From NCBI GenBank assembly GCA_026770705.1, contig JANJGN010000004.1, positions 117,986,001-118,050,000 of the forward strand: 64,000 nucleotides of DNA, written 5' to 3'. A program made the translations under genes and the position numbers. Positions 8,968-58,928 of this stretch are shown here, piece after piece. Each line of letters begins with the position of its first letter. Positions within the stretch are counted from its first letter, which is position 1. Source of the DNA: Isurus oxyrinchus. Taxonomy: Eukaryota. The notes beneath the pieces are model-generated. The model was given only the letters and a program-made list of their open reading frames with translations, did no database searches and was not told the origin of the DNA.

Positions 8968-9080
8968 AGATAAAAGCAAAATACTGCGGATGCTGGAAAC
9001 CTGAAACAAAACCAAAAATTGCTGGAAAAACTCAGCAGGTCTGACAGCATCTGTGGAGAATAAAAGGCAGAGTTAACTCT
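8968..9080 (-). mobile_element. Penelope-like element 3' tail fragment
   Basis: actgcggatgctggaaa...ctggaaaaactcagcaggtctg matches 51424-51485. Confidence 0.85.
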
Positions 9081-20236: not shown

Positions 20237-20850
20237 GGCAAAATACTGCAGATTCTGGAAAGCTGGAGTAAAGGCACACAGTACAGGAAATACTATACTC
20301 AGCAAGTTAGGCAGCATCAGTGGAGAGAGAAACAATGTTTCAGGTCTGTGAGCCTTGAGAACTGGAAAATGTGTAACTGGTTGAAGTACAAATGTCAGGA
20401 AAGTAGGAAGCAGGCATGAACAAACTGGAAGGACTGTGATAGGCTGCAATGCAAGAGTGATTAAATGAGGAGAAGAATGGAAAACAATGAAAGTGGGCAA
20501 GGTAAAAGAAACAAACAGAAATCCCTTTGGAGAGGAGAGTGGAACTTCCACAAGATGGCCATTCCTGGGAGAAGTTCTGCTCTCCTGCCTGATCGGATTT
20601 CCATTTGTCTCTTCTACATCTTTCACCTTCATTGGTTTCTGTTTCCTTTCTCCTGGCTGCATTTCATCTCTCCAGCCAATCAAAGTGTTTCAGTTTTTTT
20701 AAATCTCCCTCTGTACTTGCTTAAAACCTATTACGTTTCTTAACTTTTCCCAGTTTTGATGAAAGGTCATCAACTTGAAGCATTAGCTCTGTTTGTTCCT
20801 CCACAGATGCTGTCTGATCTACTAAGTATTACCAGCATTTTCTGTTTTGA
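20237..20850. mobile_element. Old head-to-head pair of Penelope-like 3' ends
   Basis: Minus-strand tail at ~20237-20510 and plus-strand tail at ~20620-20850, the latter with a degenerate hammerhead AGTT-TTGATGA-AAGGTC... at 20752. Confidence 0.75.
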
Positions 20851-38621: not shown

Positions 38622-38825
<204 letters not shown>

Positions 38826-41410
38826 TAAGATACAGCCCTTGGCCTGCAGCAGTATGTGCTACCCACTCATTACAAAGGTCATGAGAGATTTCAGTGACCA
38901 CAGGGAGTCTAGGATTGACAGCTTTGCAGATACCTATGGTGTCTGAGGAAACAACATAAAATGTGGCCATAGTGTTTAATCCAAGAAAAGCAAACATTAT
39001 TGCAGGGCCACACCATCAATTTAGAAGAGCTTTTAAGAACATCTCACTGGATTCTAATGCTTATTTTGTGAAATAGGGTGCAGAAGAAATATTTTGAGGC
39101 TTCATTGCCCATTTGCTCAACAGGCTGTATACATGATTGTAACTGCATGTTTATCAACAGAATATCTGGCAATTCACACTCTCTTTAAATACTTATTGTA
39201 AAATGACAGTTACCACATTAGTGTATAAAGTGACCCATTGTCTTTCTGAATGTTATTAATCAAGCAGCTCAAAATGTTGCACTTGTGTCTTTGTTTCAAA
39301 AAGTAAAATTAGGGAGTTTTTGGCCATGTGAGAATTTCGAGGGATATTGCAAACTGTTAGATAACTGAGAAAATAATTACATTTCTAACTGCTCCAGAAA
39401 CCTTTTGATCCTTCTGCATCAAGAGTGTGAAATAGTATAGTGAATACTTTATGAAAATTCTGCCGACGCCGAACAAGAGACTTCAAAGTAACTAGGAACA
39501 TGTAACCCATGGTGAATTGTTACCAATGAAGATAAATGTCACATGATCCCCAGCAGTGTGGAGGGATTGACACAGCAGGCTCTGGCTCAGAAATGTTCTT
39601 AGTTGTGAAACAGTGCCAGAGTTAGCAGAGAGGAGACTAGGAGGGTGGCTCTAGTGAAAGCAAAAGGGAATAGTTTGACAGAAAGAAGAATGAACTGTCA
39701 GAGAAAATAAATCGCAAGCTGTGGTGTCTAACTGATGATCTGCCACTCGACATCCATGTACAGCAGCATGTGACTGACCCTGCAGTTGTGTCGCAGTAAA
39801 GTAGGGACTGGCTCATATTGCAGTTGGATTAAAAAGACACTGGTATCAGCTATTATTGCAATAGATGCATTTTAAAAAAATAAAAATAGCCTTTTTGAAT
39901 ATTTTTTGATTACTGTTCTTGCATTATCCAATAGGGATAATTTTAACTTTCGAGGGTTCTGTAAAACGGGCAAAATTGGATGGGCAGCCCACTGCAGCCC
40001 TCCCCACTGTTGCTATCCATTGGACTCAATGCCCCAAGCTACAACATACCATTGTCAGTTGTATTGGTTGGGTTTTGTCTTAGCTTCAGTGAAATATTTC
40101 CCAACTCCTGTGGAATCGCCAAGCAAACTTTTGGCAGCTGATGATAAAGTAATCGATACCACACTAAGGACGCACTCTGGACACAGCCCAATTGAAGTCC
40201 GGACAATTCTTATTTCTGTATATGTGATCTGTTTATCTTGCTATTGTGTACCACACCAGTTCTCCCCTTTGATATGCTGCATTGTCTAAGTGCCATTTTG
40301 GCAACTTAAGGCTCTATCTGCTTTTCTGCACGTGTGCAATCATCAGTGGATTGCAGCAAAACAGTACTAATGCATTGTTATTTGAGAGCTAAACAATAAC
40401 ATTTGAGGCCATTCTTGTTCCTGCAAGTTGACATCATCTCAACATAATCTGCCAGATTGCAAAACTGGTAGCAGTGAGATTAGTGAAACTCCTAAAAACA
40501 GCTCTCACCATGCAGTCTCCAAGCCTGTTCAAGGAGGAAGAGACATTAAAGAGCAAGGACTTTATGCTTGTAGTCTGAGCATTCATAATTGCCAAAACAA
40601 TTGGCTTTATGCTTTTGCCATGGAAAATTCTGCTGAAAATACCCTTGGGGTTTCCACACTCTTCATGGTTTGATTCCATGCTTAGGCACAACACGTGTAC
40701 AGGTTGTGGTGTTCTGCACCTTAGACAACATGTTCACAAGCACACTCTCCAATGGCCCCAGAGACTTTGATGTTCAGAAAGCATTGCTCTTTGAAAGTAG
40801 ATTGAGATCCCTCTCAGGTGAGCAATTTGGCTCTCCATTTAAAAAATTGCTTTTTCTCCTTTTCTGTTTGTGTTCTATCACCCACTCCACTCTTCTCAAT
40901 TTTGCCATTGAAATCCCCTCCGACTGAGGTACCTGTGTTACTATTGCACAGAAGTGGATCCTTGCTGGTCATGAGGTGGAAAGTTTTGAGTAGTGTACAA
41001 CTGGGTAGTGGGTAACTGTTCATGCCATGCGTAATTAATGTATTACAAAAATACGGGGTTAGAGCAGGATTTCCTACCTTGCCATCAGAAAATCAAGGTA
41101 CACTGTGCTTGCATGATATATAATTGACATTGCTGAAGTTTATATATTTATTACCTTGTATTCCTTTTTCATTTTGAACAAACGCATCATTGCTCCTTTA
41201 TACTGTGGCAGGTCATGCCTTTAAGGTAATCTTTTGGCCAGTATGACAAAAAGCCCAATAAGGAATATTACACATGATCGGGCTTGCTCATAAAATTCTA
41301 AATGTGATGAACCCTGAAAATAGTGTTCTGCATACTTGCTATCAGGGCTCGTGCTAAGGTTACACTTACCAATATACATTCAAATAGAAGGCAAACACCA
41401 AAGTTATTTA

Positions 41411-42038
41411 AAACAAACACAGAATTACCTGGAAAAACTCAGCAGGTCTGGCAGCATTGGCGGAGAAGAAAAGAGTTGACATTTCGAGTCCTCATGACCC
41501 TTTGACAGAACTAGGTGAATCCCAGTGAGGGTTGAAATATAAGCTTATATTTCAACCCTCCCTGGGATTCACCTAGTTCTGTCGAAGGGTCATGAGGACT
41601 CGAAACGTCAACTCTTTTCTTCTCCGCCGATGTTGCCAGACCTGCACCAGCTTATATTTCAACCCTCCCTGGGATTCACCTAGTTCTGTTGAAGGGTCAT
41701 GAGGACTCGAAACGCCAACTCTTTTCTTCTCCGCCGATGCTGCCAGACCTGCACCAGCTTATATTTCAACCCTCCCTGGGATTCACCTAGTTCTGTCGAA
41801 GGGTCATGAGGACTCGAAACGTCAACTCTTTTTTTTTCTCCGCCGCTGCTGCCAGACCTGCACCAGCTTATATTTCAACCCTCCCTGGGATTCACCTAGT
41901 TCTGTCAAAGGGTCATGAGGACTCGAAACGTCAACTCTTTGCTTCTCTGCCGATGCTGCCAGACCTGCTGAGTTTTTCCAGGTAATTCTGTTTTTGTTTT
42001 GTATTTCCAGCATCCGCAGTTTTTTGTTTTTTGTTTTT
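41411..42038. mobile_element. Non-autonomous Penelope-derived insertion: one inverted arm plus four tandem ~107-nt units, 14-bp TSD
   Basis: TSD ACCAAAGTTATTTA at 41397-41410 and 42039-42052. Palindrome centre AAGCTT at 41541-41546. Units start at 41542, 41649, 41756 and 41865. Confidence 0.92.
41575..41613 (+). ncRNA. Minimal type I hammerhead ribozyme-like motif, repeated in each tandem unit
   Basis: Stem I AGUU/AACU, core CUGUCGA(A), stem II GGGUC/GACUC, GAAA, palindromic stem III ACGU, GUC cleavage triplet. Activity is not demonstrated. Confidence 0.7.
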
Positions 42039-42269
42039 ACCAAAGTTATTTACATTGTTATAACAAACAATACAATCTAAGGGTGAATGGCTTCTGTCTA
42101 ATATATGTTATATCTCCCAAATTAAATGGTCCTGGTGGTGGCAGATAGTATTTTGTAATTAAGTTCTATCTGTGCCAATCAATCTCTTGTCCTGTTTCAA
42201 GTTAACTTTCCTGATAACTCTGCTTCTTTCCTGTCTATCACTGTCTATGTCTTCTTGTTAAGTTTTTGG

Positions 42270-42490
42270 GTCTTTTTAAGCTACCAAATTTAAAATTCTC
42301 CTAATCTCCAACATCCTGTAGCTTTGAAGCACAACAAGAATTCTGCGTTCCTCCAAATCTGGTCTCCTGTGCATCCGTCAATCCCTTCACTGCACTCTTG
42401 ACAGCTGTGCCCTTGGTGACCTAAGCTCCTTACTCTGGAGATCCCTCCTTAAATCCCCTTGTTTCTCTACCATCCTTTCCTCTGAGATCT
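42270..42490 (+). mobile_element. L2 LINE 3' fragment
   Basis: aaatttaaaattctc...ctgcgttcctccaaatctggtctcctgtgcatcc resembles 37555-37800. Confidence 0.6.
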
Positions 42491-42772
42491 AAGGTCATAA
42501 ATATCAGTTTGTTACAAATAAATCCAATCAGAATTCTGGAGAAACTTGTTTACCTAGAGAGTGGTGAGAATACGGAACTTGATACCGCAGGGAGTGGTTG
42601 AGGGGAATAGCACATATACATTTAAGTAGAAGCTAGATAAACATATGATGAAGAAAGGAATAGAAAGATTAGCTGATTAGGATTTTATGAAGCAAGGTGG
42701 GAGGAGGCTTGTGGGGAGCTGGAACACCATTTTCAACTTTTTAGGCTGGATAGTCTGTTTCTGTGCTATACC
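42490..42772 (+). mobile_element. CR1 LINE 3' end
   Basis: ggagaaacttgtttacctagagagtggtgagaat... followed by a 3' UTR ending ctgtttctgtgcta. Confidence 0.75.
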
Positions 42773-44140
42773 ACCTTGCCCTAAGTTATTGTGATTCTCA
42801 TATTTTTGATTCTTCTCGTTGGTGAATGCCAGCCTGCCATACCTTTGTGAAAGAGTTTTTCCTTCCCTTCAGATCGAGGCAAGCTGGGTAGCTGCTGGAA
42901 AACCTTGCCTGGCACATTGCTCTTAGTTACTAAATTTACCCAATGGCTCTGGTCATTGAAAGTAATAAAGTATCACCTTAAATCTTATTTTCAGTTTAAA
43001 TTAACAAAGAGCTATTTTTGGAAAAAATGAATAAGCATGTAAGTAATTGCATGTATTTATGGCAGCAAATATTTGTACCACAACACCAGGTACACTTTCT
43101 ACATGGAGGCAGTGTCAGAGTGTCAGTTGGCCATAATAGACTAGCAAAGTTCAAGTTACCCATTTTTAGGTCAATGCAGCACTTAACCAATTGCAAGATC
43201 TTGCATCTAATTTATCCATCACTTATCAACTGTCGCCTGTGTAAAACATGCTTCTGATAATTCAGAAAATAATGAAGAGATATATTTGGGAAATTTCAGT
43301 AAAATTTCAGAGATTCCCAACTTCCAATAAACTCCAAGACTGTGGAGAATTGATTGTAACATGTTGATAAAAAAAAATCAATGTTTAAAAAAAAATTGAA
43401 TAAAATATTTAAGAAAAAATTAATTGCTTCATGTAGGTTTCAAAACAATGACCCTGGAATTAATAGTCCCATTGAACTACCCAGGCTGTGTTGAAACTCT
43501 CTGCACAAAACCTTAGAATGCTGGGGGAAAATAGCGTTCAAAAATTTTAAATAACCCATTTATTTTGTTAATTTTCATGGTCTGATTTATTATGGATTGA
43601 GACAAGTTGATTGGTGTTCAGTGTGGGGGTTTAACCCCTCTGTAGATGCAGCCGCTTGTTTCTCTTTCAAAGCCTCTGGGTGTCTTTTTGGACCTAGAGC
43701 GGAATGGGTCTGAGGCATGAAGTATCTGTTCACTTTCAGTTCCTGATTTTAAACACTTTCAAAATCAAGGTAGTTGCCCAGGAGTTGGGCACAAATTTCA
43801 TCCTGCTGCCAACCGGAATGTCATCAGAAGCATTTGCACATGGCACCAGTGGCTGCAGTGTGGATTGAGTGAATGCACAATTGTCCCTGATCCCTTTCCA
43901 GTCAGCAGCAGGCGTTAACGTATATTTATAGTTACCAACATTCCACCTAACCCGAGTGGGCAAAATAATAAGTTTACAACTCTTAAGAGAGAGATAATTG
44001 ATTGGGATTCTGTTCCTTGACTTTCTTACCACAGTGGAAGCTTAATTAATCTACACTGATTTTTGGAAATTAAAACTGATTTTTCTCTCTCAGGAGTTTC
44101 AAATGATTTAACTTGAAACTGCTTCTGGGTTGGTAACTTA

Positions 44141-44775
44141 GGGCAGAATTTTGTTCGGCGTGCGGGTGCGGGCCAGACAGGCCCAAGCGTAATATTACAT
44201 CGGGTGTGCATCCGGACATCACGAACTCGCGCGATATTTCGTTAGGCAGGCGCGCACTGGAGTTGGCTGCGTGCCTGCCGATAATTGAAAGGCCTATTAA
44301 AACCATTAACAAGCTAATTAAAATCAAATTAGTGCTGCCCGTCCAGCCTTATGGTTGGCGGGCAGGCAAAAAAGCCAAGTGGCCTTTGCATTTTTTTAGG
44401 AAACCACATCCACAAACGGGGTGACGTTTCCTAAAGCAAATAAACATTAACTGAAATCTTGATTTTTGAATTAAAAACACGTCCCAGCTCATTTGACAGA
44501 GTCGCAGGAGGGGACATGTTTTTAAAAATTTTTTACTGTCTATAAAAAGTGCTTCAATCAAAGCGCTCTTTGCGTGCATGCACGAACTGCGTGCTAGGCC
44601 CGCTGTCCCTCCTTCTCTCGCCCACACAGGTAGCGTTGAGCACTGTAGCTCGCAATCCACGCAGGGCAGGCCTTATTTGCCCTGCCCGCATTAATTCGCG
44701 GTGTGGACCCGATCGCAAGTGGCGGTCGGCTTCCCGATCGTCCCAGCCCTGCCCGATGAGGGAAAAATTCTGGCC
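44141..44775. mobile_element. PIF/Harbinger-like MITE related to 26707-27335
   Basis: Terminal inverted repeats GGGCAGAATTTT / AAAATTCTGGCC with flanks TTA and TTC. Confidence 0.85.
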
Positions 44776-44826
44776 TTCATTGTGGATCTGAGTTTACTGC
44801 TTGTCGGTGAAAGTTTAAAATCTATC

Positions 44827-46685
44827 TTTTAATTCATTCATGGGATGTGGGCATCGCTGGGTGGGTCAGCATTTATTGCCAATCCCCAGTTGCACTTGAG
44901 AAGGTGGTGGTGAGCTGCTGCCTTGAACCGCTGCAGTCCATGTGGTGTAGGTACACCCACAGTGCTGTTAGGAAGGCAATTCCAGGATTTTGACTCAGTG
45001 ACAGTGAAGGAACGGCAATGTATTTCCAAGTCAGCATGATGTGTGGCTTGGAGGGGAACTTGCAGGTGGTGTTCCCATGCATTTGCTGCCCTTGTCCTTC
45101 TAGGTTGCTGAGGTTGTGGGTTTGCAAGGTGCTGTTGAAGGAGGTTTCGTGATCTTCTGCAGTGCATCTTATAGACCGTACACACTGCTGCCACTGTGTG
45201 TTGGTGGTGGAGGGAGTGAATGTTGAAGACGATGGATGGGGTGCCAATCAAGCGGGCTGCTTTGTCCTGGATGGTGTCGAGCTACTCCAGTGTTGTTGGA
45301 GCTGCACCCATCCAGGCAAGTAGAGAGTATTCCATCACACTCTTAACCTGTGCCTTGTAGATGGTGCACAAACCTTGGGGAGTCAGGAGGTGAGTTACTC
45401 GCCACACAATTCCCAGTCCCTGACCTGCTCTTGTAGCCACATTAATTATATGGCTGGTCCAGTTCAATTTCTGATCAGTGGTAACCCCCAGGATGTTGAT
45501 AGTGGAGAATGGTGCTAAATGTTGTGCAATCATTAGAGATCATCCCCACTTCTGACCTTATGATGGAAAGTCATTGATGAAGCAGCTGAAGATGTTTGGG
45601 CCTAGGACACTACCCTGATGACCTCCTGCAGCGATGTCCCAGGACCAAGCTGATTGACCTCCAACAACCACAACCATCTTCCTTTGTGCTAGGTAAGACT
45701 CCAACCAGTGGAGCATTTTCCCCCTGATTCCCATTGACTCTAGCTTTGATGTCAGGGCAGTCACTCTCATCTCATCACTGGAGTTCAGCTCTTTTGTCCA
45801 TATTTGGACAAAGGCTGTAATGAGGTCAGGAGCTGAGTGACCCTGGTGGAATCCAAATTGAGCATCAATGAGCAGGTTATTGCTAAGCAAGTGCCATTTG
45901 ATAACACTGTCAATGATACCTTTCATCACTTTACTGATGACTGAGAGTAGACTGATGGGGTGATAATTAGCTGGGTTGGATTTCTCCTTTTTGTGGACAG
46001 GACACATCTGGGCAATTTTCCAGTTGCCAGGTAGATGCCAGTGCTGTAGCTGTAATGGAACAGCTTGGCTAGGGGTGGAGCTGGTTCTGGAGCCAAAGTC
46101 TTCAGCACTATTGTCAGAATATTGTCAGGGCTCATTGCCTTTGTAGTATCCAGTGCCTTCATCTGTTTCTTGATATCACGTGGAGAAAATCGAATTGGCT
46201 GAAGACTGGCATCTGTGATGCTGGGGACCTCTGGAGGAGACGAGATTGAGCATCCACTCGGCACTTCTGGCTGAAGATGGTCGCTAATGCCTTGTCTTTT
46301 GCACTGATGTGCTGGGCTCCCTCCATCATTGAGGATGGGGATTCTTGTGGAGCCTGCTCCTCCAGTGAGTTATTTAATTGTCCACCACCATTCACAACTG
46401 GATGTGGCAGGGCTGCAGAGCTTAGATCGGAACCATTGGTTGTGGGATTGCTTAGCTCTGTCCTTCACGTGCTGCATCCGCTGTTTGGCCCACAAGTAGT
46501 CCTGCGTTGTAACTTCACTTGGTTCTCACCTCATTTTTAGGTATGCCTGGTGCTGCTTCTGGCATGCAGTCCTGCAATCTTCATTGAACCAAGGTTGATC
46601 CTCTGGCTTGATGGTAACGGTAGAGTGGGGGATATGCCAGGCCATGAGATTACAGATTGTGGTTGTATACAATTCTGCTGCTTAT
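44827..46685 (-). mobile_element. CR1-group LINE (family B), ~1.9 kb, internally deleted RT pseudogene
   Basis: NPANYHPISLLSVISKVM, QFGFHQGHSAPD, QGSVLGPNIFSCFINDF and IYKAQVKSVMEYS; 3' tail at ~44830. Confidence 0.92.
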
Positions 46686-46689
46686 GACC

Positions 46690-46772
46690 TACAGTTTGAA
46701 CCCCTGTGCCTTGAGCAATTAGCCTCTGGATTATTGGTCCAGTGACATTACTGCTATGCCACTGCTTCCCCT
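46690..46772 (-). mobile_element. tRNA-derived SINE head
   Basis: Minus strand reads gtggcatagcagtaatgtcactggacc...ggggttcaaac (A and B box-like); same family as 60958-61075. Confidence 0.55.
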
Positions 46773-47054
46773 TTTGATTTCAGCGGAACAGCTCTTTTTG
46801 TATCCTAAACAGAGTTACTGGGACCTACTGGATTTGGAACATCCAAATTGCTTATCAGATTTAACAACAAGCTGAACCAGTTACAGTGCATTGTTCAACC
46901 TCGATCTCTTCCCGTTTGTACCATACTTACTTTTGATATCTACAGTCCGTAGCATATTAAAGTTCCTCTTGCATGGTACTTTCAGACAAACTCTCTGGAA
47001 GCCCAGATACGCTAGACCAAATAATTTTCTCATCACTTTAACATGAGAGAATCT

Positions 47055-47770
47055 AACCATCACCCCTTGATGTTCAATGGCATTACCATCACTGAATCCC
47101 CCACTATCAACATCCTGGGGGGTTACCATTGACCAGAAACTGAACAGGACTAGCCATATAAATACTGTGGCTACAAGAGGAGGTCAGAGGCTAGGAAAAG
47201 TTTGACGAGTAACTCCTCACCTGACTCGCCTGTCCAGCATCTACAAGGCACAAGTCAGGAGTGTGATGGAATACTCCCCACTTGCCTGGATGAGTGAAGC
47301 TCCCACAACACTCAAGGAGCTTGACATCAGCCAGGAAAATGCAGCCCGCTTGATTGTCACCGCATCCACAAACATTCACTCCTTCCACCACTGACATACA
47401 GTAAGCAGCTGTCTCTACAAGTTGCACTGCAGGAATTTACCAAGGCTCCTTCGACAGCACCTTCCAAACCTATGACCGCTACCAACTAGAAGGACAAGGA
47501 CAGTAGATAGATGGGAGCACCACCACCTAGAAGTTCCCCTCCATGTCACTCACCATCCTGACTTGGAAATATATCACTGTTCCTTCACAATCGCTGGGTC
47601 AAAATCCTCGAACTCCCACCCTAACAGCACTATGGGTATATCCACACAACATGGACTTGCAGTGGCTCAAGAAGGCAGCTCACCAACACCTTCTCAAGGG
47701 CAAATAGGGATGGGCAATAAATGCTGGCCCAGCCAGTGACGTCCACATACCATGAATGAATAAAAAAAAT
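47055..47770 (+). mobile_element. CR1-group LINE (family B) 3' fragment
   Basis: Reverse-complement homologue of 44830-45505, ending catgaatgaataaaaaaaa. Confidence 0.92.
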
Positions 47771-47781
47771 ATATCTGCAGT

Positions 47782-49008
47782 ACATATGAACATACGAATT
47801 TGGAGTCTGAGTAGGCTACTCGGTCCTTCAAGCCTGCTCCGCCATTCAATAAGATCATTGTTGATCTGGCTGTAACCTGTCACCTATCCCCAGTAACGTT
47901 TCACCCCATTGCACTACCTGTGCTTTGAAAACATCCAAGACTCTTTTTCCACTGCCTTTGAGGAAAGGATTTCCAAAGATTCATGACCCACTGAGAGAAA
48001 AAAATTCTTATCTCTGTCTTAACTGGGTGACCCTTTATTTTTAAACAGTGACCCCTAGTTTTAAATTCCCCACAAGAGGAAGCATCCTTTCCACATCCAC
48101 CCCGTCAAGACCCCTCAGGATCTTAAAGGCTTTAATCAAGTTGCTTCTTTTCTAAACTCCAGTGGGTACAAGCCTAGCCTGTCCAACCTTTCCTCATAAG
48201 ACAACCTACCCATTCCATGTACTTAATAAACCTTCTCTGAACTGTTTCCAATGCATTTACATCCTTCCTTAAATAAGGAGACCAATACTGAATGCAGTAT
48301 TCTAAATATGGCCTCCCCAGTGTCCTGTACAACTGAAGCATAACCTCCCTAGTTTTGTATTCAATTCCCCTGAATAAAAAATAACATTCTATTAGCTTTC
48401 CTAATTACTTGCTGTACCTGATACTCGTCTTTTATAATTCATGCACTAGGACACTCAGACCCCTGTGCATCTCAGAGCTTTGCAATCTCTCACCATTTAG
48501 ATAGTATGCTTCTTTTTATCCTTCCTGCCAAATTGGGCAATTTCACACATTTTCCTGCATTATACTCCATTTGCCAGATCTTTGCCCACTTGCATAACCT
48601 CTCTGTCCCCATGTAGTTTCCTTATGTCCTCTTCACAGCTTACTTTCCTACCTATCTTTGTATCATCAGCAAGTTTAGCAATCATCCCTTCATTCAAGTC
48701 ATTTATATAAGTTGTAAAAAGCTGAGGCCGCAGCGCTGATCCCTGTGGCACACCATTCGTCGCATCCCGCCAACCAGAAAAAGATCCATTTATGCTAACT
48801 CTCTCTTCCTGTTAGCCAGCCAATCTTCTGTCTACACCTATATGTTACCCCCTACTCCATGAGCTTTTATTTTCGATAATAACCTTTGATGTGGCACTTT
48901 ATCAGATGCCTTCTAGGGATCTTAAGTACAGTACATCCACTGGTTCCCCTTTATCCACAGCACATGTAACTCCTTCAAAGAATTCCAATAAATCAGTTAA
49001 ACATTATT
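47782..49008 (-). mobile_element. CR1 LINE (family A), 3' 1.2 kb
   Basis: RT motif PQGSALRPQLFTTYINDL...KLADDTKIG (48560-48751) and a CR1 tail at 47782. Confidence 0.92.
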
Positions 49009-49169
49009 TTGGTCAAAAAATTCTACCCTTTCTAAAGGTATATTGGCTGTCATTTATCAGATTATTTTCATTTAGGTACTATTCCAGTTCTACTTTTAAT
49101 CATTCTTTCCATTAGTTTCCTAATTCTTTAGAGGGAACCATAGACTTATAGTTTTCCGTGAGTATAGGA

Positions 49170-49355
49170 ATGACACTGTCCCTGGGTCAAAATCCTGGAA
49201 CTCCCTCCCTAACGGCATTGTAGGTGTGCCTACACCACAGGGACTGCAGCGGTTCAAGAAAGCAGCTCACCATCACCTTAAGGGCAATTAGGGATGGACA
49301 ATAAATGCTGGCCTAGCCAACAAAGCCCACATCCCATGAAAGAATTTTAAAAAAA
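49170..49355 (+). mobile_element. CR1-group LINE (family B) short 3' end
   Basis: Collinear with 47590-47765. Confidence 0.9.
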
Positions 49356-51411
49356 CATTTGCCTGGTTTCAGTTTATTATTCATCAAATCTGTCAATTTC
49401 ACACATCATATTTTGTTGAGATATAATCCATTTTCTAAGGGAATTTCAGTTCCTTCAGCCGATTAAGAGTCTCTGCTTCAGAGTCCTGAAATAAACACCA
49501 ATTTTTTTTTGCTTTTCCTGTTGAAAAACCCTCCAACCCATTTAACATGTTTAGTATCTTCTGTTAATTTTCATTTTAAATCATGTGAATATCTCTGGGC
49601 TTAGATTTCCTCCTGGAATCGTCCTTTTATTTTATTAAAAGTATTGAAGGAATTTTTTAAAGTCTTTTTTAGTACAGTATATTCCTCTCCAATTCTCCCT
49701 TGATAACCCCATTTCTAATATAGACCTGCTTATTTATAGTTCTGTTGTGTCCTGTGGTTATCTATCTCTCTACATGCTTTGCAAGCTTCCTGTTTTAATT
49801 GTCCCATTCTAGCATTTCAGAGCTGTTTTTGTTCAGCCCTGACAAAAAGTTTATTCCTGATATCGAGACCCTGCATAATATTTTCAGAGGATGTCCATTT
49901 ATTCTAGAACAGTTTATCCTCAAGTCAATGTTGTTAAACTTTGCCCTTGTATCCCAGAACATTTTTGTGTTAAATTGTATGCTAAGATTTGTGCCTGCAC
50001 TTATTCCCAATCAGATTGAATGTTGAAGCTTAACAATTCAATTTCTTCCACTCCCCAAATAGTATCTAGCCACTTGGGGGGGAAAAAACAAATTTAGAAG
50101 ACGACCTGCTCTTCAGGAGAGGTTCGTGATGCAGTCAGGAGACAGTGTGAACAATGTTGACATATTCAGTCCCTTCTCCTGGAACATTTCTGATTTTGGT
50201 ATTGTTGAAGTTACCAATTGTTATCATCAGCCTTTTGTTCACACTTCAAGTTTTGTCATAAAATAACAAGTCATTCCATTTCTTTTGATCAAACTATCTA
50301 GGAAAACTTCATATTTTGTCTGGCTTTTTTCTTGCTACACATGTAGCTAGAGAATTTCGCACAATAGCTTTTCCAGTGGCACCGCCTTAACTTCCCATGT
50401 GTATATAAGACAACCCCCTCTTTTCCTTCTTCCTAAATACCCTGAATCAGATTGTCAGATACTTAAACATCACCCTAGATTAGTCATATCTCTGTGATTC
50501 ATGTTAAAACATAATTATCAGCCATGATCCATGCCTCTAGTTTTAAAGGCTCTGGCATTTATGTACATGAATCCAATTTTGGCTCTTGACCCTAACTCAA
50601 GTTATCCAAGTAACCTGATCCTCCTGATGATGCTATATTCTTGGCCTTGTCCTTATCAATTATAGTATCTTCTTTCTTATACATACAGGCCATACTCAGT
50701 CCTCCAGCAAAGGTCACCAGTTAGCTATCAGTAGTGGGAAACCTGAGAGATTTTTCCCTGCCTTCCTGCAGCGATGCCTAGATTAATGTTGAATGCCCCC
50801 AATGGCTGGTCTAACTGTGATTATCCAATTTGAAACAGACTGTAAATTGAACCCAAGGCTGTCTGACCTGTATGGCATTGGATCACACCATAGATTGCAT
50901 TTACTGAGAGTCCATCGTGGAGGTATGTATTGCCTCTACAAGACTTGAAGTTTTATATAGCTTTGATTGATTAATTCTGATCTCTGTTAGTTATCTTCGA
51001 CTGGCTAATACATAATTATTCAACTATTTTTTGACATCAGGCATTTTATGTCTGAACTTGGAGTTTTTGCCAATGATCAGAAATAAGTACATGCATGCAG
51101 CCAGCCCAGAAAAAGGAGCTTGGATGTCATTTTTTAAAAAGCTGTCTCCAATTACAAAGCAAGTAAATGCTTCAAACAATTTTACTTAGATATAAATATT
51201 GAGTGAATTACAAATATTGTTCGTTTGACCTGCATTGTGGAATGCTCATTTAAACATTAAGTTCTGTGGGTGGGCAATAGTAAGTAGGTGTGAAGAGTAG
51301 GCGTTACTTGGTGTTAATGAGGCAGTTAGCTGGCTGCCCTTTTTAAATTAGCCCAAGGTCATTGTTCAAAGTTAGAAATATTGTCTTGGGAAACAACACT
51401 GTTTTATCTTG

Positions 51412-52649
51412 AAAACAAAGAAAACTGCGGATGCTGGAAATCCAAAACAAAAACAGAATTACCTGGAAAAACTCAGCAGGTCTGGCAGCATTGGCGGAGA
51501 AGAAAAGAGTTGACGTTTCGAGTCCTCATGACCCTTCGACAGAACTTGATTTCGAGTCCAAGAAAGAGTTGAAATATAAGCTGGTTTAAGGTGTGTGTGT
51601 GGGGGGGGAGGAGAGAGAGAGAGAGACAGAGGTGCTTGTGTAGACAAACAAGCAGTGATAGAAGCAGATCATCAAAAGATGTCAGTGACAATGGTGCAAA
51701 AGAACACATAGGTGTTAAAGTTAAAGTTGGTGATATTATCTAAATGAATGTGCTAATTAAGAATAGATGGTAGTGCTCAGCAAAGGACTTAGTTTCATAC
51801 CCTTATGAATTTCGGGCTCGGCATGATGCTGAACTCTTCTTTCGCCGTCTTCGTCTCCGGGCTCACTTCTTTGGGCAGGAGTCCTCTCCCAGTTCAACAG
51901 ATCCTTTTACTCATCTCCAATATTCTCCCTCCACCTGGACCCCTCCCTCTGGATTCTTACCTTCTCTTGATCTTTTCATTGAGAACTGTCGGCGCGACAT
52001 TAGTCGTCTCAATTTCTCTGCTCCTCTCACCCATTCTAACCTGTCTCTCTCTGAACTTACTGCACTCCATTCTCTCAGGTCCAACCCTGACATTGTCATC
52101 AAACCCGCTGACAAGGTTGGTGCTGTTGTTGTCTGGCGCACTGACCTCTACCTCGCGGAGGCTGAGCGTCAACTCGCAGACACTTCCTCCTACCTCTCCC
52201 TGGAATAACTTTAGGTCGTGAGCTCCCTCCCCCATCCCCACCCCCTTTCTGTTTCCCCCTTTTTTCCCCTTTTTTTCCCTATAAATTTTATAGATTTTTC
52301 TTTTCCCACCTATTTCCATTATTTTTTAAATATTTTAAAATCTTTTATGCTCCCCCCACCCCCACTAGAGCTGTACCTTGAGTGCCCTACCATCTATTCT
52401 TAATTAGCACATTCGTTTAGATAATATCACCAACTTTAACTTTAACACCTATGTGTTCTTTTGCACCATTGTCACTGACATCTTTTGATGATCTGCTTCT
52501 ATCACTGCTTGTTTGTCTACACAAGCACCTCTGTCTCTCTCTCTCTCTCCTCCCCCCCCACACACACACCTTAAACCAGCTTATATTTCAACTCTTTCTT
52601 GGACTCGAAATCAAGTTCTGTCGAAGGGTCATGAGGACTCGAAACTTCA
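51412..52649. mobile_element. Palindromic, internally deleted Penelope-like element with 14-bp TSD
   Basis: TSD ACTGTTTTATCTTG at 51398-51411 and 52650-52663. Inverted arms of 266 bp at 51508-51773 and 52387-52652. The spacer contains PLE ORF sequence homologous to 33428-33855. Confidence 0.93.
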
Positions 52650-53368
52650 ACTGTTTTATCTTGGTGCATTAGTCTTATTTGGCTGGCTATCTATGTATAT
52701 TTTCATTGATGGGTATAAATACCTGCATTTGATTGATGAACTATATTTCTACTACTGACCCTGGAATTTCCCATTAATACCACATTTGATTGATGACATG
52801 ATGTTTTAATAAATTTGTCCTAGATCTGAGTTTGCAAATCCAAAATCAAAACAGTGAAGCTGTGGCTGTGAATAGGGAAATGGTTTTCTTGGAAAGGCAG
52901 TAATTGGGGCACTTCAAAGTTATTTACAGCATTGAATTATTTTATTCTGTTAAAATGGATGGGTGTGAACATCACTGTTAAGAGTTGGAGTGAAACCACA
53001 GTAAAGGATTGGATGGGAACATAATCTGGCATAAGGTTACTCAGTGCCTTCTCCCTTAAACTACTGGGTTTGGATGGATGTGTTTGCACCATGAACCGTA
53101 CAATACTACCCTAGTTGCTGCTACTGAAATGGATGAATAAAAACATAAAGGAAAGATTGAGGATAGGCAGGGGCACACAGTGAGTACATGGACAGCAGAG
53201 GAGAGCATGACAAGGGAGAATACATTGAGAAATATAAAAAAAACTACAAATTAACCTGCAGAATAGGCAGATAATTAGCAAATGAGTTTCAACACAAATA
53301 AGGTTGAGGTGTTGTATTTTTTTTTAAAAAACAAGGAAACTTGGAAATTAAGGGCAGGATTGCACCTT

Positions 53369-53676
53369 TGTTGGACCCTGGTCACTAATTTAGTTGGACT
53401 GATGGATCCAGGTTGCAGTTTGTTTCGGGAGGGCCGAGTTGGTACCATAGACAGAGTAGATCAGCAGACAGTTCTTATGTAGATCACATTATTTATTTAC
53501 AAAGGAACTCAGCAGCTACACTTGTGTGCTTACAACTCAAACCCTCTCTCTACATTACAGACTCTAACTCTACTCCTACTGACTACTATGGTAACCTGCG
53601 CTACTCTGCTCTTGGAAGATCATATGAACTTCCATTATAATCTTCTTAAAGGTATATTACACATCAGATTACCACA
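53369..53676 (-). mobile_element. Solo LTR (308 bp)
   Basis: TG...CA termini, 5-bp TSD ACCTT at 53364-53368 and 53677-53681, and AATAAA on the minus strand near 53495. Confidence 0.7.
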
Positions 53677-55751
53677 ACCTTTCAGGGCAGGGACCTGACG
53701 TCTGATGTGAGTCCAGGTCTCAAATGCACTTGGAAGACCATGGGACTTCCACCTCAATTTTTACTAGTGGCAGCTCATGAATAAGCTGCAACTGGGTTTG
53801 CTGCCCTGTGCAGGTTGGCTACCCAACTAGAGCTGCCGGACCAATCAGAGGGCCAGCAGCTCAGCAGCACCACCAAGAACAGCGGTTACTGCTCAGGCAT
53901 GCAGGGGCTCTGAAGACTGGATGAGGTAGCCTGATATCTATGGAGGGGAAACTCTTGTGAATTAATCTCAGGCTGTCTTCACTGCCTGCCACCCCCTCTT
54001 TGAATGAAAAGTACCACCCCCACCCCACTCTCCCTTCAGCTTTTTGAATAGAAATTGACTTTGAAATAACTCCCAAATGTCTTGCACTTGCCAAAATTAA
54101 GTGTTGTACTGTTCAATTCACTCAAAAACAAAATTTTGATATCAAAATAATAGGTCAAGCAAATCTCAGAACAGCACAGTTATGTCTTGTGGTTCCCAGA
54201 AGTTCGAAATAATCACATTTTCAGACGCTATTACTGGAGCTAACACCAAATGTATTTTTTTCCAGATCTCTAAGTGCTGCAGAATAATACGTTGTCAGTT
54301 CAGAGCATAGACTGTAGTGCAGTATTGAATGATGTGGCATCCTGAATATTTGTGTATACATGCACATAGGAATATAGTCCCTGACTTTTTTTGACCAATC
54401 TAACAAGGACCCTGAAGTTTTGAGGTGTTTGGGAATTTAACATGATTCTGATTCCTAATTGGCTACCATCACAGTAGTTTTCTCATTAGAATTTACTAAA
54501 TGATTATTGAACTAATGAAAGCAGCAGGGTGGTGGACTTTAGGCAAGAGAAACAAAAGTCCTTGTGGTGTATGATTTAAGCAGCAGCCTTGGGCATGGAG
54601 GAGCCCTTGGGTATAAAACTTGCAGCCCCTGAATCCTGCGGTCAGAATTGTGAATGATGTACTGTCCAACTGCTTTTTGTCCCGGAAAAAAAAATTCTGT
54701 CGTTAAGAAAAGCTATTACAACAAATAGTCTGATACAATCTTATTTTCAATTCACTTTTCCTTTAACACGATAAGTTTTTAAAAAAAAACTTATGCATCA
54801 GCTGTCCAAGATGCATGCATGCAGGAAGCTGGCCATGTGTCATTTAACTAATTAAAGATATGCAAGGGTGTAATCTGGGCAAAATGGACTTAAAGTTAGG
54901 ACCTTGCATCTAAATGCTTTTTAACTAGATCAGCTGTATTACACATTGATGAAAAGTTGCTTTCTATAGTAATGAGGGAGGTTGTCTGCCAAAATTCGTG
55001 TTTATAGCAATTTGAAAAATAAATGTTGCTTACCATTACATTGTTGTTTAAAGCTCTCTGATGAATGTTATGTTCAAATCTGCTTATTAAATATTGCTAA
55101 ACTGGTTTGCTTTAAATGCATACTTTTTGTTTTTGAACTGTCATAAGTTTTAACTTGTTTGCCTAATTTAATTTCAGGAAAAGATTACAAGATTAATTTT
55201 CCGTAAGCTTTATTGGACCTCATTACATGTTGGGCTGTTTGGATTCTTAGAGCAAATAGTGCTACCCAGCAATGCTTTTTCTGCTGTTCACTAGTATTTT
55301 TATATTTTATGCAGTCCAACCCTCAATGTAGTTTCATTTCAGTCTTCTCTCTCTTATTCACTTTTGCCTTCTCCCTATCCAATGAATAATTACTGAAGTG
55401 TCATTTTTGTAAATTAGAGATTTCTTCACTTAAGCAATTACATTTGATAATATGGCATTAACTTTTTTCAGCTTGTTAAAACATCATATAATGAAATTAC
55501 GATGAACAGATAAAAAAAATTGTTTTATTCTATTGGAAGCCTACTGAGAAGAGAAATTGCTTTTCCAAATAAGACCCATTTAAAAAGTCTTGTGGGCTTG
55601 GGGGGATGGTGGGAGAATGGAAACAAAGTCAGAGTAAGTACAAAAACACACTCAAAGCAATAGAAACATTGTAGGAATTCAGTAACAGACGCAACAACTA
55701 ATTGTGTTTACAGTGATTAATATCAAAATGAATTTTATTGACAAACACCTT

Positions 55752-56432
55752 GGCCGGAGTTTCCCCCTCTGACATTTGGGATGGAATGGAGGTGGGGTAG
55801 CAAAAAAAATGGCCACCAAGCAACGCAACTGGAAATCCTATCTCCATTTCTGCCCTTTGCTGTTTTCCAAAGGTGGGGAAGGGAGCTAGCCTCTAAATTG
55901 GTCTGTTTCTATTTATATTGTTGTCGGCTCATTAAGAGTGCGTCCCTGGTAAGTTTTCCAATTTTCCGTGAGGTGGCCAATGATCAACAGCTGTCCGGAA
56001 TCAGACCAGCCTAGTGGAGGTGGGGAGGGGACAGGGTCGGCTATAAACCCATGCGAGAAGATGCAGTTCGAAATTGCATTGAAGAGCCTGAGCATGGCTG
56101 GGGCAGGGGGGCGGAGTCATGGTCTTACCCCATTTTAAAAAATGTGCCACCAGCCTCGCCTGTCCCAGGTTCCAGGCCTCCAACTGTCCTCCAAAAGTGG
56201 GAAATTTGTACTTTGAAAATTTTATCTGGAAATATTAATTTATGTGGTATGTTTCCCTTGTTTCCTGCCTCCATTTCTGCCCCCTTGCCTTTGGCACTAC
56301 ACCCGCCTCTAAGGTTATTGAAGCCCCGACCCCTGGAAAATCCTGCTTCCTGGAAGGCTGCTGACAGAGGCAGGTTAATGACCTGAATCGAAGCCGCCTC
56401 CCAATTCGTACTTCGGAGGGAAAAGTCCGGCC
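55752..56432. mobile_element. Harbinger-like MITE (second family)
   Basis: Imperfect inverted termini GGCCGGAGTTTCCC / GGGAAAAGTCCGGCC with the 3-bp direct repeat CTT on both sides. Confidence 0.65.
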
Positions 56433-57621
56433 CTTGTTTTTGTAAGAAAGGGGAGCACAGGAGCACGTGATGTGATTGCAAAAGGTTGAAAAATTTAGCA
56501 GCAGAAGGTGTAATATTATTTTTGACTTTGCTTTCTCTGGCAGTGTGTGTGTAAGGAGATGTAATTGCAGGCTTGTTTTTTAAAAAAAGGATTTGTTTAG
56601 TTTTAAGCCATCAGTTACAGGAGGACAATGGCAATAATTCGTTCAGCTGTTTTGATTGGCACACAGATTGAACGATGATTTGAAATATTTGGGCTGCTGG
56701 GAGCCATGTGCTTTGATTGTTTTTTCTCTCCTTGTGATACTGAGCTGTATTATGTGTGGGGCAATTTTACTAGTAGGAGGCAAAACTGCAGAAGTACAGA
56801 GCTTTTTTTTTTGAGCATGGCTTTGTATTATAAATGAGATCTGAATCAGTTTTGGCCTGAAGTAAACCACTGCAGGGACCAGGCCTGTACTGGGACCAAT
56901 TTGGAGGCGCAAAAGTGCAAACTGCAGATTTGCTGCCACATCAGTTTGATTCCACTTGGTGTACAAACTCACATACTGTTTGCACAAAAGGAGAGGGGAG
57001 AAGTTGAGTTTTTTGCTGATCGGTTACTTCATATGAACACCACTTTGAGTCAGAAATGTTAACAATCAACAGTTTGAATTGAACAATGGAACTTGGTTAA
57101 AGTAGGAGGACTCAATGAAAGCAAGATATAAATACAATAATGGATTTGTACTGCTCAAATCTGATCCAGACAATTGCAATCCAGCTGCTAGCAAAAATGT
57201 GAAAAATTCTAGGCTCTAAGTTAATATCAGCATAAGATGACCGATCTTTAGGGAAGATTTTATGATAAGACCAATTCAGAAACATCATAAAAGGAGAAAT
57301 TTTACTAGCCCAAAAGCGAATTTATTTTGACAAGGCTTTTTTTTTATATCTCAGTAGCTCATTGTAAATGACGGTAGATTTTCTGTCACATTTGACAGCT
57401 ATGGAAGTGACAATATAAAAACCCATGAACGAAAAAGCCCATTATGAATAAAACGGAAACACAAGAATTTTGAGCATGCGCAATGATATTCTCATGTGGA
57501 CAAATATAAAAGTATTAGTTTTGCATGTCCCTATCTAAATGAAACTGGCTGTGCATTTAGAAAATGACTTATGATGAAATTAGCTGTAAAACTTATCCAC
57601 TTATATTTATATTTGTTTCAG

Positions 57622-57711
57622 CTTAACAAAATGAAGGATTTATATGAGAAGATAAATGAACAGTGTGTGGCTTACAAAGAGTTAATCTGGTCACAAAATG
57701 CCAATCATGAG
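57622..57711 (+). CDS. CCDC171: CCDC171 coding exon 11: LNKMKDLYEKINEQCVAYKELIWSQNANHE
   Basis: CAG acceptor, GAG|GTAGGA donor, 90 nt, phase 0 to 0. Confidence 0.88.
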
Positions 57712-58659: not shown

Positions 58660-58928
58660 TAATAAAAATGGCAAGTGCTGGAAATACTCAGCAGGTCTGA
58701 CAGCATCTGTGGAGAGAGAAATAGAGTTAACGTTTCAAGTCAAATATTACTTCAGAATTGAAAGAAGGTAGAAATGTGATGGGTTTTATGTTGGTGGAAT
58801 GGGGAGGGGAAGGAAGAACAAAAGGGAAGCTCTGGGGCAGGGTAGAGGGCAGGTGTGATTACATGACAAAGATGTCATGGAACATAAGGCAAAGTATGTG
58901 GTAATGGTTGTAGTAAAGAAACAAAAGA
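58660..58928 (-). mobile_element. Penelope-like element 3' end
   Basis: gctggaaatactcagcaggtctgacagcatctgtggagagagaaatagagttaacgtttc tail with a hammerhead remnant (GAAACGTT-AACT on the minus strand). Confidence 0.85.

What the first reader, a model, noticed from the sequence alone, without database searches (positions are those of the whole stretch)
41397..42052. Retrozyme-like array: four tandem ~107-nt hammerhead units plus an inverted arm, mobilised as one TSD-bounded insert
Seen: a perfect 14-bp TSD encloses a non-coding 628-bp insert. It consists of a minus-strand arm folding back at AAGCTT with no spacer, then four near-identical units (107, 107, 109 nt, and a last one running into the full PLE tail). 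Each unit carries AGUU-CUGUCGA-A-GGGUC/GACUC-GAAACGUC-AACU. Units 1 and 3 are intact; unit 2 has CUGUUGA and a GCC triplet; unit 4 has G8A. Established: Penelope-like elements carry minimal type I hammerheads with palindromic stem III thought to cleave as dimers, and tandem hammerhead repeats in animals (non-LTR retrozymes) produce small circular RNAs. Inference: this could be a very small shark retrozyme-like parasite of PLE machinery. It lies in sense orientation in the CCDC171 pre-mRNA and could cut the intron or release 107/214-nt linear or circular RNAs. The antisense arm could mask one unit. Caveat: the unit junction (GACCTGC|ACCAGCTT) is not at the cleavage site, so local slippage or RT template jumping is an alternative origin.
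Basis: partly seen in the sequence, partly recalled or inferred. Interest (0 to 1): 0.85.

Follow-up and report, generated by a model that had tools for sequence, protein, structure and literature searches.

The report
Stuttered end of shark Penelope retrotransposon
The insert is a real, heavily shortened copy of the end of a very common shark jumping gene whose ribozyme-like segment is repeated four times, likely through a copying stutter at insertion; this array has not spread, although similar arrays elsewhere in the genome have.

Summary
Observation confirmed: 14-bp TSD, 135-nt antisense arm, four units (period 107/107/109), tail, sense in a CCDC171 intron. The sequence is the terminal repeat (pLTR) of a Penelope-like element (PLE) with an intact RT plus GIY-YIG parent and 127,339 exact copies of its hammerhead stem. 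Arm, fold-back and one-sided tail are the family's ordinary insertion form (122 identical centres; 5,608 at a neighbouring hotspot). The array's junction occurs only here (3 hits with up to 2 mismatches), so this is not a propagating retrozyme. Short tandems recur at 66 other loci, mostly with private junctions. The junction bases and the even divergence of the units point to formation at or soon after insertion. No unit has the canonical core: the family carries U for A6 (95,651 versus 180), and the arm is predicted to mask one unit, so self-cleavage and circles are doubtful and untested. More interesting, and elsewhere: a 55-nt-unit array re-inserted at five sites on one contig with separate flanks and mutated cores. 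The scan noted the same ordinary PLE anatomy earlier in three other genomes.

The parts
41397..41410 (+). Left target-site duplication ACCAAAGTTATTTA
   Evidence: 14/14 identical to 42039-42052
41411..41545 (-). Inverted, 5'-truncated pLTR copy lacking the 3' tail. It continues into native pLTR sequence after GACCTGC and does not contain the array junction. Its hammerhead-like motif is at 41512-41474 (A6U, G8A).
41541..41546 (.). Fold-back centre AAGCTT (self-complementary, no spacer); 122 exact 20-mer centres genome-wide
41542..41645 (+). Unit 1 (104 nt, lacks the ACC); motif 41575-41613, core CUGUCGA, predicted cut after 41609; predicted to be paired with the arm during transcription
41646..41752 (+). 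Unit 2 (107 nt); core CUGUUGA, ACGC instead of the ACGU palindrome, GCC triplet
41753..41861 (+). Unit 3 (109 nt); family-consensus motif 41789-41827, predicted cut after 41823
41862..42000 (+). Unit 4 running into native pLTR sequence; core CUGUCAA (G8A); splice-donor-like CAG/GTAATT at 41979-41987
42001..42038 (+). PLE 'tail' extension, present on this side only
   Evidence: defined in PMC3846280, PMC8557442, PMC11167929
42039..42052 (+). Right target-site duplication
38805..57618 (+). Host CCDC171 intron that contains the insert
   Evidence: tblastn of P0003: residues 439-475 at 38694-38804, 474-504 at 57619-57711

Best explanation
The insert is a severely 5'-truncated insertion of the terminal repeat of an abundant Penelope-like retrotransposon, in the family's usual head-to-head form with a tail on one side, and its four-fold repeat is likely a one-off copying stutter made during or soon after insertion. 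Shown: parentage, anatomy, uniqueness of the junction, recurrence of comparable arrays with other junctions, and the A6U core. Inferred: the PLE protein cut the target with a 14-nt stagger and reverse-transcribed pLTR RNA from the outer (tail) start site. On reaching ACCAGC it jumped back to GACCTGC, and the resulting junction was reiterated by the RT or by DNA slippage shortly afterwards. The untailed arm was built in the same event from native pLTR sequence (second priming, or fold-back with a template switch) and joined at the self-complementary AGCT. The ribozyme-like motifs are probably passengers: predicted weak or silent, one unit masked by the arm, with no circular intermediate needed.
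For: Parent: unit 4 aligns at 88.5% over 169 nt to the pLTR of a 3.35-kb tandem element with an open 926-aa frame: RVT_1 E 7e-08, above cut-off; GIY-YIG E 9e-04, below cut-off. Abundance: 127,339 exact stem-II hits against 26 for the control. Anatomy is ordinary: 18 of 18 single-unit relatives examined have arm plus tailed copy, and 17 of 18 have a TSD-like repeat of 8-14 nt; 122 exact AAGCTT centres; 5,608 fold-backs at the AGTTC hotspot with varied centres. Junction unique. Tandems recur: 93 matches at 67 loci including this one; 53 of 67 have an arm, 49 of those 53 have the tail on exactly one side, 29 of 67 have 3 or more motifs and 18 of 67 have 4 or more; periods 34-124 nt; unit ends are scattered, and 1 of 64 direct arrays ends at the cleavage site. 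ACC at the junction is native element sequence (TTAA or a close variant precedes ACCAGCTT in all 30 loci printed) and is absent from this locus' own centre, so it was not duplicated from the finished insert. The four units share no change; they are 3-5 apart per 104-107 nt, arm versus unit 4 is 6/135, and the family mean arm versus own sense copy is 3.9%, so the array is about as old as the insertion. Core: 95,651 U6 versus 180 A6. Arm pairing with unit 1 is 0.96-0.97 in partial transcripts and with unit 4 is 0.94 in the full one. Literature: tandem/inverted PLE insertions with a tail (PMC8557442, PMC3846280, passages); two internal RT start sites and insertion independent of ribozyme cleavage in vitro (PMC11167929, main text); low min-HHR activity (PMC4209133, main text); 1 of 9 Xenopus dimers cleaved (10.64898/2026.07.22.740005, main text).
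Against: The junction is blunt (no shared microhomology; 3 extra native bases) yet identical three times, which a small circular or pseudo-circular template would also give. The dating test is weak: about 2-3 changes per unit cannot exclude expansion some time after insertion. Arm and unit 4 share G8A; this is a CpG site also changed in L014 and L058, but it could mean units 1-3 came from a second template. Other arrays did re-insert (C31, C30, C9), so a lost or unassembled source for this one is possible. Longer arrays show shared changes between units (4 of 4 arrays with 7 or more motifs, 0 of 12 shorter ones, over a 23-nt segment), so DNA-level expansion also operates. A6U sits in an intact, young parent, so it may be tolerated with protein help. 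Nothing about cleavage or expression was tested.
Confidence: 0.68

Rival explanations
1. A single-unit palindromic PLE insertion, or a dimer, was expanded later at the DNA level by slippage, unequal crossover or repair from an ectopic pLTR copy, as an ordinary minisatellite.
For: A 136-bp spacerless palindrome is an unstable structure (general knowledge). Longer arrays of the family show shared changes and higher-order duplication (L106, L147, L151, L153). The Li preprint proposes local amplification after insertion.
Against: The junction's ACC is not in this locus' centre, so simple local duplication cannot make the first junction. The four units share no change and are as far apart as arm and sense copies of single-unit relatives.
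Confidence: 0.17
2. The insert is a retrocopy of a genuine 107-nt retrozyme: a tandem source was transcribed, cut by its hammerheads, circularised and reverse-transcribed by rolling circle using the PLE enzyme.
For: Three identical blunt junctions; one TSD around the whole insert; other arrays of this family re-inserted at new sites (five C31 loci); animal non-LTR retrozymes derive from pLTRs (10.64898/2026.07.22.740005).
Against: No source or sibling carries the junction. The insert ends in the native tail and distal pLTR, which a 107-nt circle would lack. The array is not permuted at the cleavage site. The core has A6U; a change at A6 gave kobs below 0.1 per min in PMC3088659 (A6C, passage read). 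If the arm masks unit 1, only unit 3 is left as a plausible cutter, and one cut releases no circle (inference).
Confidence: 0.11
3. The tandem is an assembly artefact around an ordinary single-unit palindromic insertion.
For: Palindromes and high-copy repeats are hard to assemble; the tandem was not checked against reads.
Against: Each unit has private substitutions and one has a 2-nt insertion; 28 other loci show arrays of 3 or more motifs with orderly anatomy.
Confidence: 0.04

Closest known systems
Endonuclease-positive Penelope-like elements: 5'-truncated partial-tandem and inverted insertions with a 30-40-bp tail (PMC8557442, PMC3846280, PMC11167929)
   Same: pLTR sequence of an RT plus C-terminal GIY-YIG parent; head-to-head inverted copy with a palindromic junction; tail on one end only; TSD of about 8-18 bp in this family; hammerhead-like motif in the pLTR.
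   Different: Here the tandem unit is a 107-nt internal piece of the pLTR repeated four times, not a partial tandem of the element. The family core is CUGUNGA.
Minimal type I hammerheads of metazoan PLEs (Cervera and de la Pena 2014, PMC4209133)
   Same: 4-bp helix I, a bulged nucleotide after A9, G10.1-C11.1 pair, palindromic ACGU without loop 3; that paper already notes paired motifs 100-700 bp apart on opposite strands.
   Different: U instead of A at core position 6 in 95,651 of 95,831 matches; helix II is 5 bp. Older relatives in this genome (L067, L071, duplicated set L072-L079) keep CUGA(U/G)GA.
Animal non-LTR retrozymes (Cervera and de la Pena 2020, PMC7229834; Li, Clavereau and Pollet 2026, 10.64898/2026.07.22.740005)
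   Same: Tandem units each with a type I motif, pLTR-derived, non-coding, TSD longer than 4 bp; unit length and copy number fall in the preprint's ranges (51-972 bp; most families up to 7 units; one chondrichthyan sampled).
   Different: Single locus, no family; minimal and non-canonical motif rather than the canonical one of the 2020 retrozymes (150-450 bp units); array embedded in a tailed PLE insertion; no cleavage or circular RNA shown.
Non-autonomous Chlamys-type PLE derivatives such as MRC1 (PMC8557442, passage)
   Same: [quoted passage not shown]
   Different: Those are spreading families; this array is not. The C31 array group in this genome is the nearer parallel.

Membership tests
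EN+ Penelope-like element insertion | Sequence belongs to the pLTR of an element encoding RT plus GIY-YIG endonuclease in one ORF | tested here: met
   Unit 4 aligns at 88.5% to the pLTR flanking a 926-aa ORF; RVT_1 E 7e-08 above cut-off, GIY-YIG E 9e-04 below cut-off
EN+ Penelope-like element insertion | Inverted 5'-truncated copy adjacent at the 5' end | tested here: met
EN+ Penelope-like element insertion | 30-40-bp tail on one end only, with TSD | tested here: met
   Tail 42001-42038, absent from the arm; 14-bp TSD; 49 of 53 armed tandem loci have a one-sided tail
Neptune clade of PLEs | Zn-finger-like linker between RT and EN, and RT phylogeny | tested here: inconclusive
   Cys motif CPRKRCNTC lies between RT and EN in the parent ORF, as described for Neptune/Nematis (PMC8557442); no tree was built
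Minimal type I hammerhead (min-HHR) | Helices I and II, bulged base after A9, GAAA, palindromic helix III, NUH triplet | tested here: met
   Units 1, 3, 4 and the family. Not unit 2 (ACGC, GCC). The monomer fold is not the MFE and no fold beats shuffles (z +0.9 to +1.8).
Minimal type I hammerhead (min-HHR) | Conserved core CUGANGA | tested here: not met
   All five copies have U6; genome-wide 95,651 U6 versus 180 A6
Minimal type I hammerhead (min-HHR) | Self-cleavage as a dimer or with protein help | not testable with these tools
   needs an in vitro assay
Non-LTR retrozyme | Tandem repeats with a type I motif in consecutive units | tested here: inconclusive
   Tandem confirmed, but no two consecutive units are both family-consensus and none has the canonical core; the preprint's exact descriptor was not seen
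Non-LTR retrozyme | Family of dispersed copies of the same unit (mobility) | tested here: not met
   Junction only at this locus
Non-LTR retrozyme | Expressed monomeric linear and circular RNAs | not testable with these tools
   needs RNA data from this species

The most novel reading that the evidence does not exclude
This shark PLE family shows retrozyme-like arrays being born without a working ribozyme. The telomerase-related RT re-copies the 5' end of short pLTR-initiated RNAs during insertion, producing dozens of locus-specific arrays of 37-120-nt hammerhead-shaped units. Some arrays then become templates and hop locally along their own chromosome, changing unit number, even though their cores are mutated (A6U family-wide, plus U4G/U4A in the C31 group). 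The window's array would be one such birth that never left. Animal non-LTR retrozymes would then start as RT stutters, with cleavage and circles selected later.
Probability: 0.3. Interest if true: 0.6.

Novelty: new member of a known kind. Interest (0 to 1): 0.3.

Why it matters
The locus itself matters little: it is one of more than 100,000 pLTR copies, and nothing shows an effect on CCDC171. Its value is as a pointer. The PLE transposition cycle is unsolved (how tandem and inverted ends form, what the hammerhead does), and the origin of animal retrozymes from pLTRs rests on co-occurrence and trees in a 2026 preprint. This genome holds a natural series of young insertions: thousands of fold-backs, dozens of arrays and a few locally spreading array groups. 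It also has an intact parent whose hammerhead carries a non-canonical core, so the role of cleavage and the stutter mechanism can be tested directly.

Tried and rejected
Rfam scan of the window: 0 hits at gathering score, so it is uninformative for minimal motifs. Single-strand folds of the units do not favour the hammerhead and do not beat shuffles. The palindrome as a fixed MITE-like unit moved whole: disfavoured, because centres vary widely, the tail switches sides and arms often share subfamily marks with their own sense copy (3.9% within versus 5.6% between), although the own copy was nearest in only 5 of 18; L007 and L011 share an asymmetric mark and may be an exception. A nine-locus recurring junction was not a family: L072-L079 are one duplicated segment (92-99% identical over about 3 kb) and, with L067 and L071, are young inversions nested in older elements. 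Unit boundaries set by ribozyme cleavage: 1 of 64 direct arrays (L147) ends at the site, about what chance gives (estimate by hand). Pure fold-back copying of the finished array to make the arm: rejected, because the arm lacks the junction. Sequencing runs: no RNA holder listed, which is no evidence on expression. Read-level support for the tandem was not obtained, so it stays open. Literature searches for A6U data, shark PLE clades, local hopping of PLEs and twin priming in PLEs returned only listings with nothing directly on these points, apart from the A6C passage; that is not proof of absence from print. In one search, large negative microhomology values come from point mutations or indels breaking my extension rule and were not used. 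Some of the 67 loci are duplicates (L156/L158, L159/L160) or internal inversions (L089, L101, L155), not direct arrays. No control was run for whether tandems are enriched at the hammerhead relative to other parts of the element; the search anchor was itself in the hammerhead.

Full report
Observation. The stretch is as described. A 14-bp direct repeat (41397-41410, 42039-42052) encloses 628 bp. A minus-strand arm (41410-41545) is 96% complementary to 41865-42000 and folds back without spacer at AAGCTT. Four units follow at spacings of 107, 107 and 109, and the last runs into a 38-nt tail. An exon at 24672-24830 matches shark CCDC171 proteins (best identity 98%, Cetorhinus maximus). tblastn places consecutive exons at 38694-38804 and 57619-57711 on the + strand, so the units are sense in an intron. 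Rfam finds nothing in the window.

What the sequence is. Unit 4 aligns at 88.5% over 169 nt to the repeat flanking a 3.35-kb tandem element with an open 926-aa frame. [quoted passage not shown] The family is huge: 127,339 exact hits of the stem-II 14-mer against 26 for the reversed control, and 21,642 of an upstream 21-mer.

The arm is ordinary. A DNA search with the insert gave 4,640 candidates, of which 40 were scored. I examined the 18 distinct other loci among the 30 fetched. All 18 are a single tailed unit plus an untailed inverted arm, and 17 have a TSD-like repeat of 8-14 nt. The exact 20-nt AAGCTT centre occurs 122 times. A neighbouring hotspot at AGTTC, the 5' edge of the hammerhead, has 5,608 fold-backs with varied centres. 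This matches the published PLE form: inverted 5'-truncated copy, palindromic junction and a 30-40-bp tail on one end (PMC3846280 and PMC8557442, passages read). In the anole element the tail lies between two internal RT start sites, both target strands are cut and extended, and ribozyme mutants still insert in vitro (PMC11167929, parts 1-2 of 4 read).

The array has not spread. The junction pattern gives 3 hits, all at this locus, both exactly and with up to 2 mismatches. A gapped pattern gave 16 hits: 2 here, 2 pLTR dimers with other junctions, and the rest nested or duplicated elements. This is one assembly, so a lost source cannot be excluded.

Arrays like it recur. Two stem-II anchors 94-124 nt apart occur 93 times at 67 loci including this one (a lower bound, since other spacings were not searched). 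I fetched and parsed all 67 (part's printout was cut, but one search covers all). Of these, 53 have an inverted arm, 49 of the 53 have the tail on one side only, 45 have a TSD-like repeat of 9 nt or more, 29 have three or more motifs and 18 have four or more. Periods run from 34 to 124 nt. Unit ends are scattered, and 1 of 64 direct arrays ends at the predicted cleavage site. Most unit starts lie within 20 nt upstream of stem II. The window's array starts further up, at ACCAGC, and is the only one with four units of about 100 nt.

When and how it formed. In the parent, ACCAGCTT follows TTAA or a close variant (30 of 30 loci printed). The ACC at each junction is therefore element sequence, but this locus' own centre reads TATAAGCTT, so the first junction was not made by duplicating the finished insert. 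The arm runs on into native sequence after GACCTGC, so it is not a plain fold-back copy of the array. Against their subfamily the four units carry 1, 2, 3 and 3 changes and share none; the arm carries 5 and shares one CpG transition (G8A) with unit 4. Unit-to-unit distances (3-5 per 104-107 nt) resemble arm to unit 4 (6/135) and the family's arm-to-sense mean of 3.9%. The array is thus about as old as the insertion, though the test has little power. I infer a template jump by the RT during insertion, reiterated by the RT or by slippage soon afterwards. Contigs from three runs of a related species (10 differences in about 530 nt) run 20-22 nt past the TSD into the arm and end there. That hints that the insertion predates the species split, but it is below the tool's 31-letter bridging rule.

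The ribozyme. The motif has min-HHR architecture as defined in PMC4209133 (parts 1-2 of 4 read): short helix I, bulged base after A9, ACGU palindrome. But the core is CUGUNGA, not CUGANGA, in all five copies, in the intact parent and in 95,651 versus 180 genome-wide matches. Older relatives keep A6 (few independent loci). An A6C natural variant cleaves at under 0.1 per min, in line with earlier mutagenesis of that position (PMC3088659, passage read); I found no A6U data. Min-HHRs are weak even when canonical (PMC4209133), the anole one needs its protein (PMC11167929), and 1 of 9 Xenopus dimers cleaved (10.64898/2026.07.22.740005, parts 1-3 of 5 read; its supplements were not seen and may list shark arrays and the exact descriptor). 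Folding predicts that the arm pairs with unit 1 while transcription proceeds (0.96-0.97) and with unit 4 at full-length equilibrium (0.94). In the first case only unit 3 is a plausible cutter and no 107- or 214-nt piece is released. In the second, units 1 and 3 could in principle release 214 nt. None of this was tested, and an effect on CCDC171 is unsupported.

One 55-nt junction gives 17 hits at 8 loci. One is a false match in an older element, one is on C28, and six are on the 25-Mb contig C31. Five of those six (17.2-22.8 Mb) share diagnostic core changes and have unrelated flanks and 2-7 units; four show their own TSDs, and the tail switches sides. Similar same-contig groups are on C30 (2 loci, 51-nt unit) and C9 (3 loci, 53/55-nt units). 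So arrays can be re-inserted by PLE machinery, apparently near their source and with damaged cores. Searches for local hopping or twin priming in PLEs returned nothing on the point (listings only).

Comparison and verdict. The locus works like, and is, a truncated tandem/inverted PLE insertion. It resembles animal non-LTR retrozymes (PMC7229834, passages read; Li preprint) in being a pLTR-derived tandem, but fails the mobility and canonical-core tests, and its RNA products are untested. Three earlier scan notes from other genomes reached the same ordinary reading; I saw them after forming mine, and they are not independent evidence. Novelty: new member of a known kind. Interest 0.3, mostly for the family-level leads.

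Noticed in passing
G000 C31:17.16-22.83 Mb (L152, L153, L154, L195, L196; also L197): A 55-nt hammerhead-unit array re-inserted at five sites of one contig with shared diagnostic core changes (U4G/U4A), 2-7 units, unrelated flanks, separate TSDs and the tail on either side. Six of 8 junction hits lie on 0.5% of the genome. Looks like local re-mobilisation of a retrozyme-like array with a damaged ribozyme. The arm matches the first unit, not the last, at the diagnostic site.
   Followed up: partly
L150, L151 (C30, 0.9 Mb apart); L120, L121, L122 (C9, within 0.8 Mb): Two more same-contig groups sharing a junction (51-nt and 53/55-nt units) with different flanks; genome-wide junction counts were not run for these.
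   Followed up: partly
genome-wide; L194: The dominant young PLE family, including an element with an intact 926-aa ORF, has U instead of A at hammerhead core position 6 (95,651 versus 180); older relatives are canonical. It is either a tolerated, protein-assisted variant or a structure kept for another role.
   Followed up: partly
window 41546-41581; family-wide: TATATTT lies 29 nt upstream of an initiator-like AGTTC at the hammerhead's 5' edge, where 5,608 fold-backs and most array starts cluster. This may be the transcription start of short pLTR RNAs (inference).
   Followed up: partly
L194:3772-3940; window 41979-41987: In the intact parent a donor-like CAG/GTAATT after the hammerhead and an acceptor-like TTCAAG just before the ORF's first ATG suggest a 5'-UTR intron that contains the tail. 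The donor is present, sense, inside the CCDC171 intron.
   Followed up: no
L089, L101, L155, L097, L068: Arrays with alternating sense and antisense segments, or with dimers on both arms (L068 joins two subfamilies), pointing to repeated template switching during insertion.
   Followed up: no
L147 (C24:5015404): Nine-motif array of 40-nt units whose unit end coincides with the predicted cleavage site; 1 of 64, possibly chance.
   Followed up: no
L072-L079 (C26, C38 x5, C42, C100): A segment of at least 3 kb duplicated at eight places (92-99% identical) that contains a young inverted PLE end nested in an older one; L067 and L071 are similar nestings, suggesting insertion into older pLTRs.
   Followed up: partly
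window 51412-51585 (-), 52575-52656 (+), also 77-162, 8972-9066, 20749-20848, 58678-58741: Further pLTR copies of this or older families in CCDC171 introns; the first two look like a divergent pair about 1 kb apart.
   Followed up: no
L029, L030: The same 11-nt templated insertion at the fold-back centre in two different subfamilies on different contigs; unexplained.
   Followed up: no
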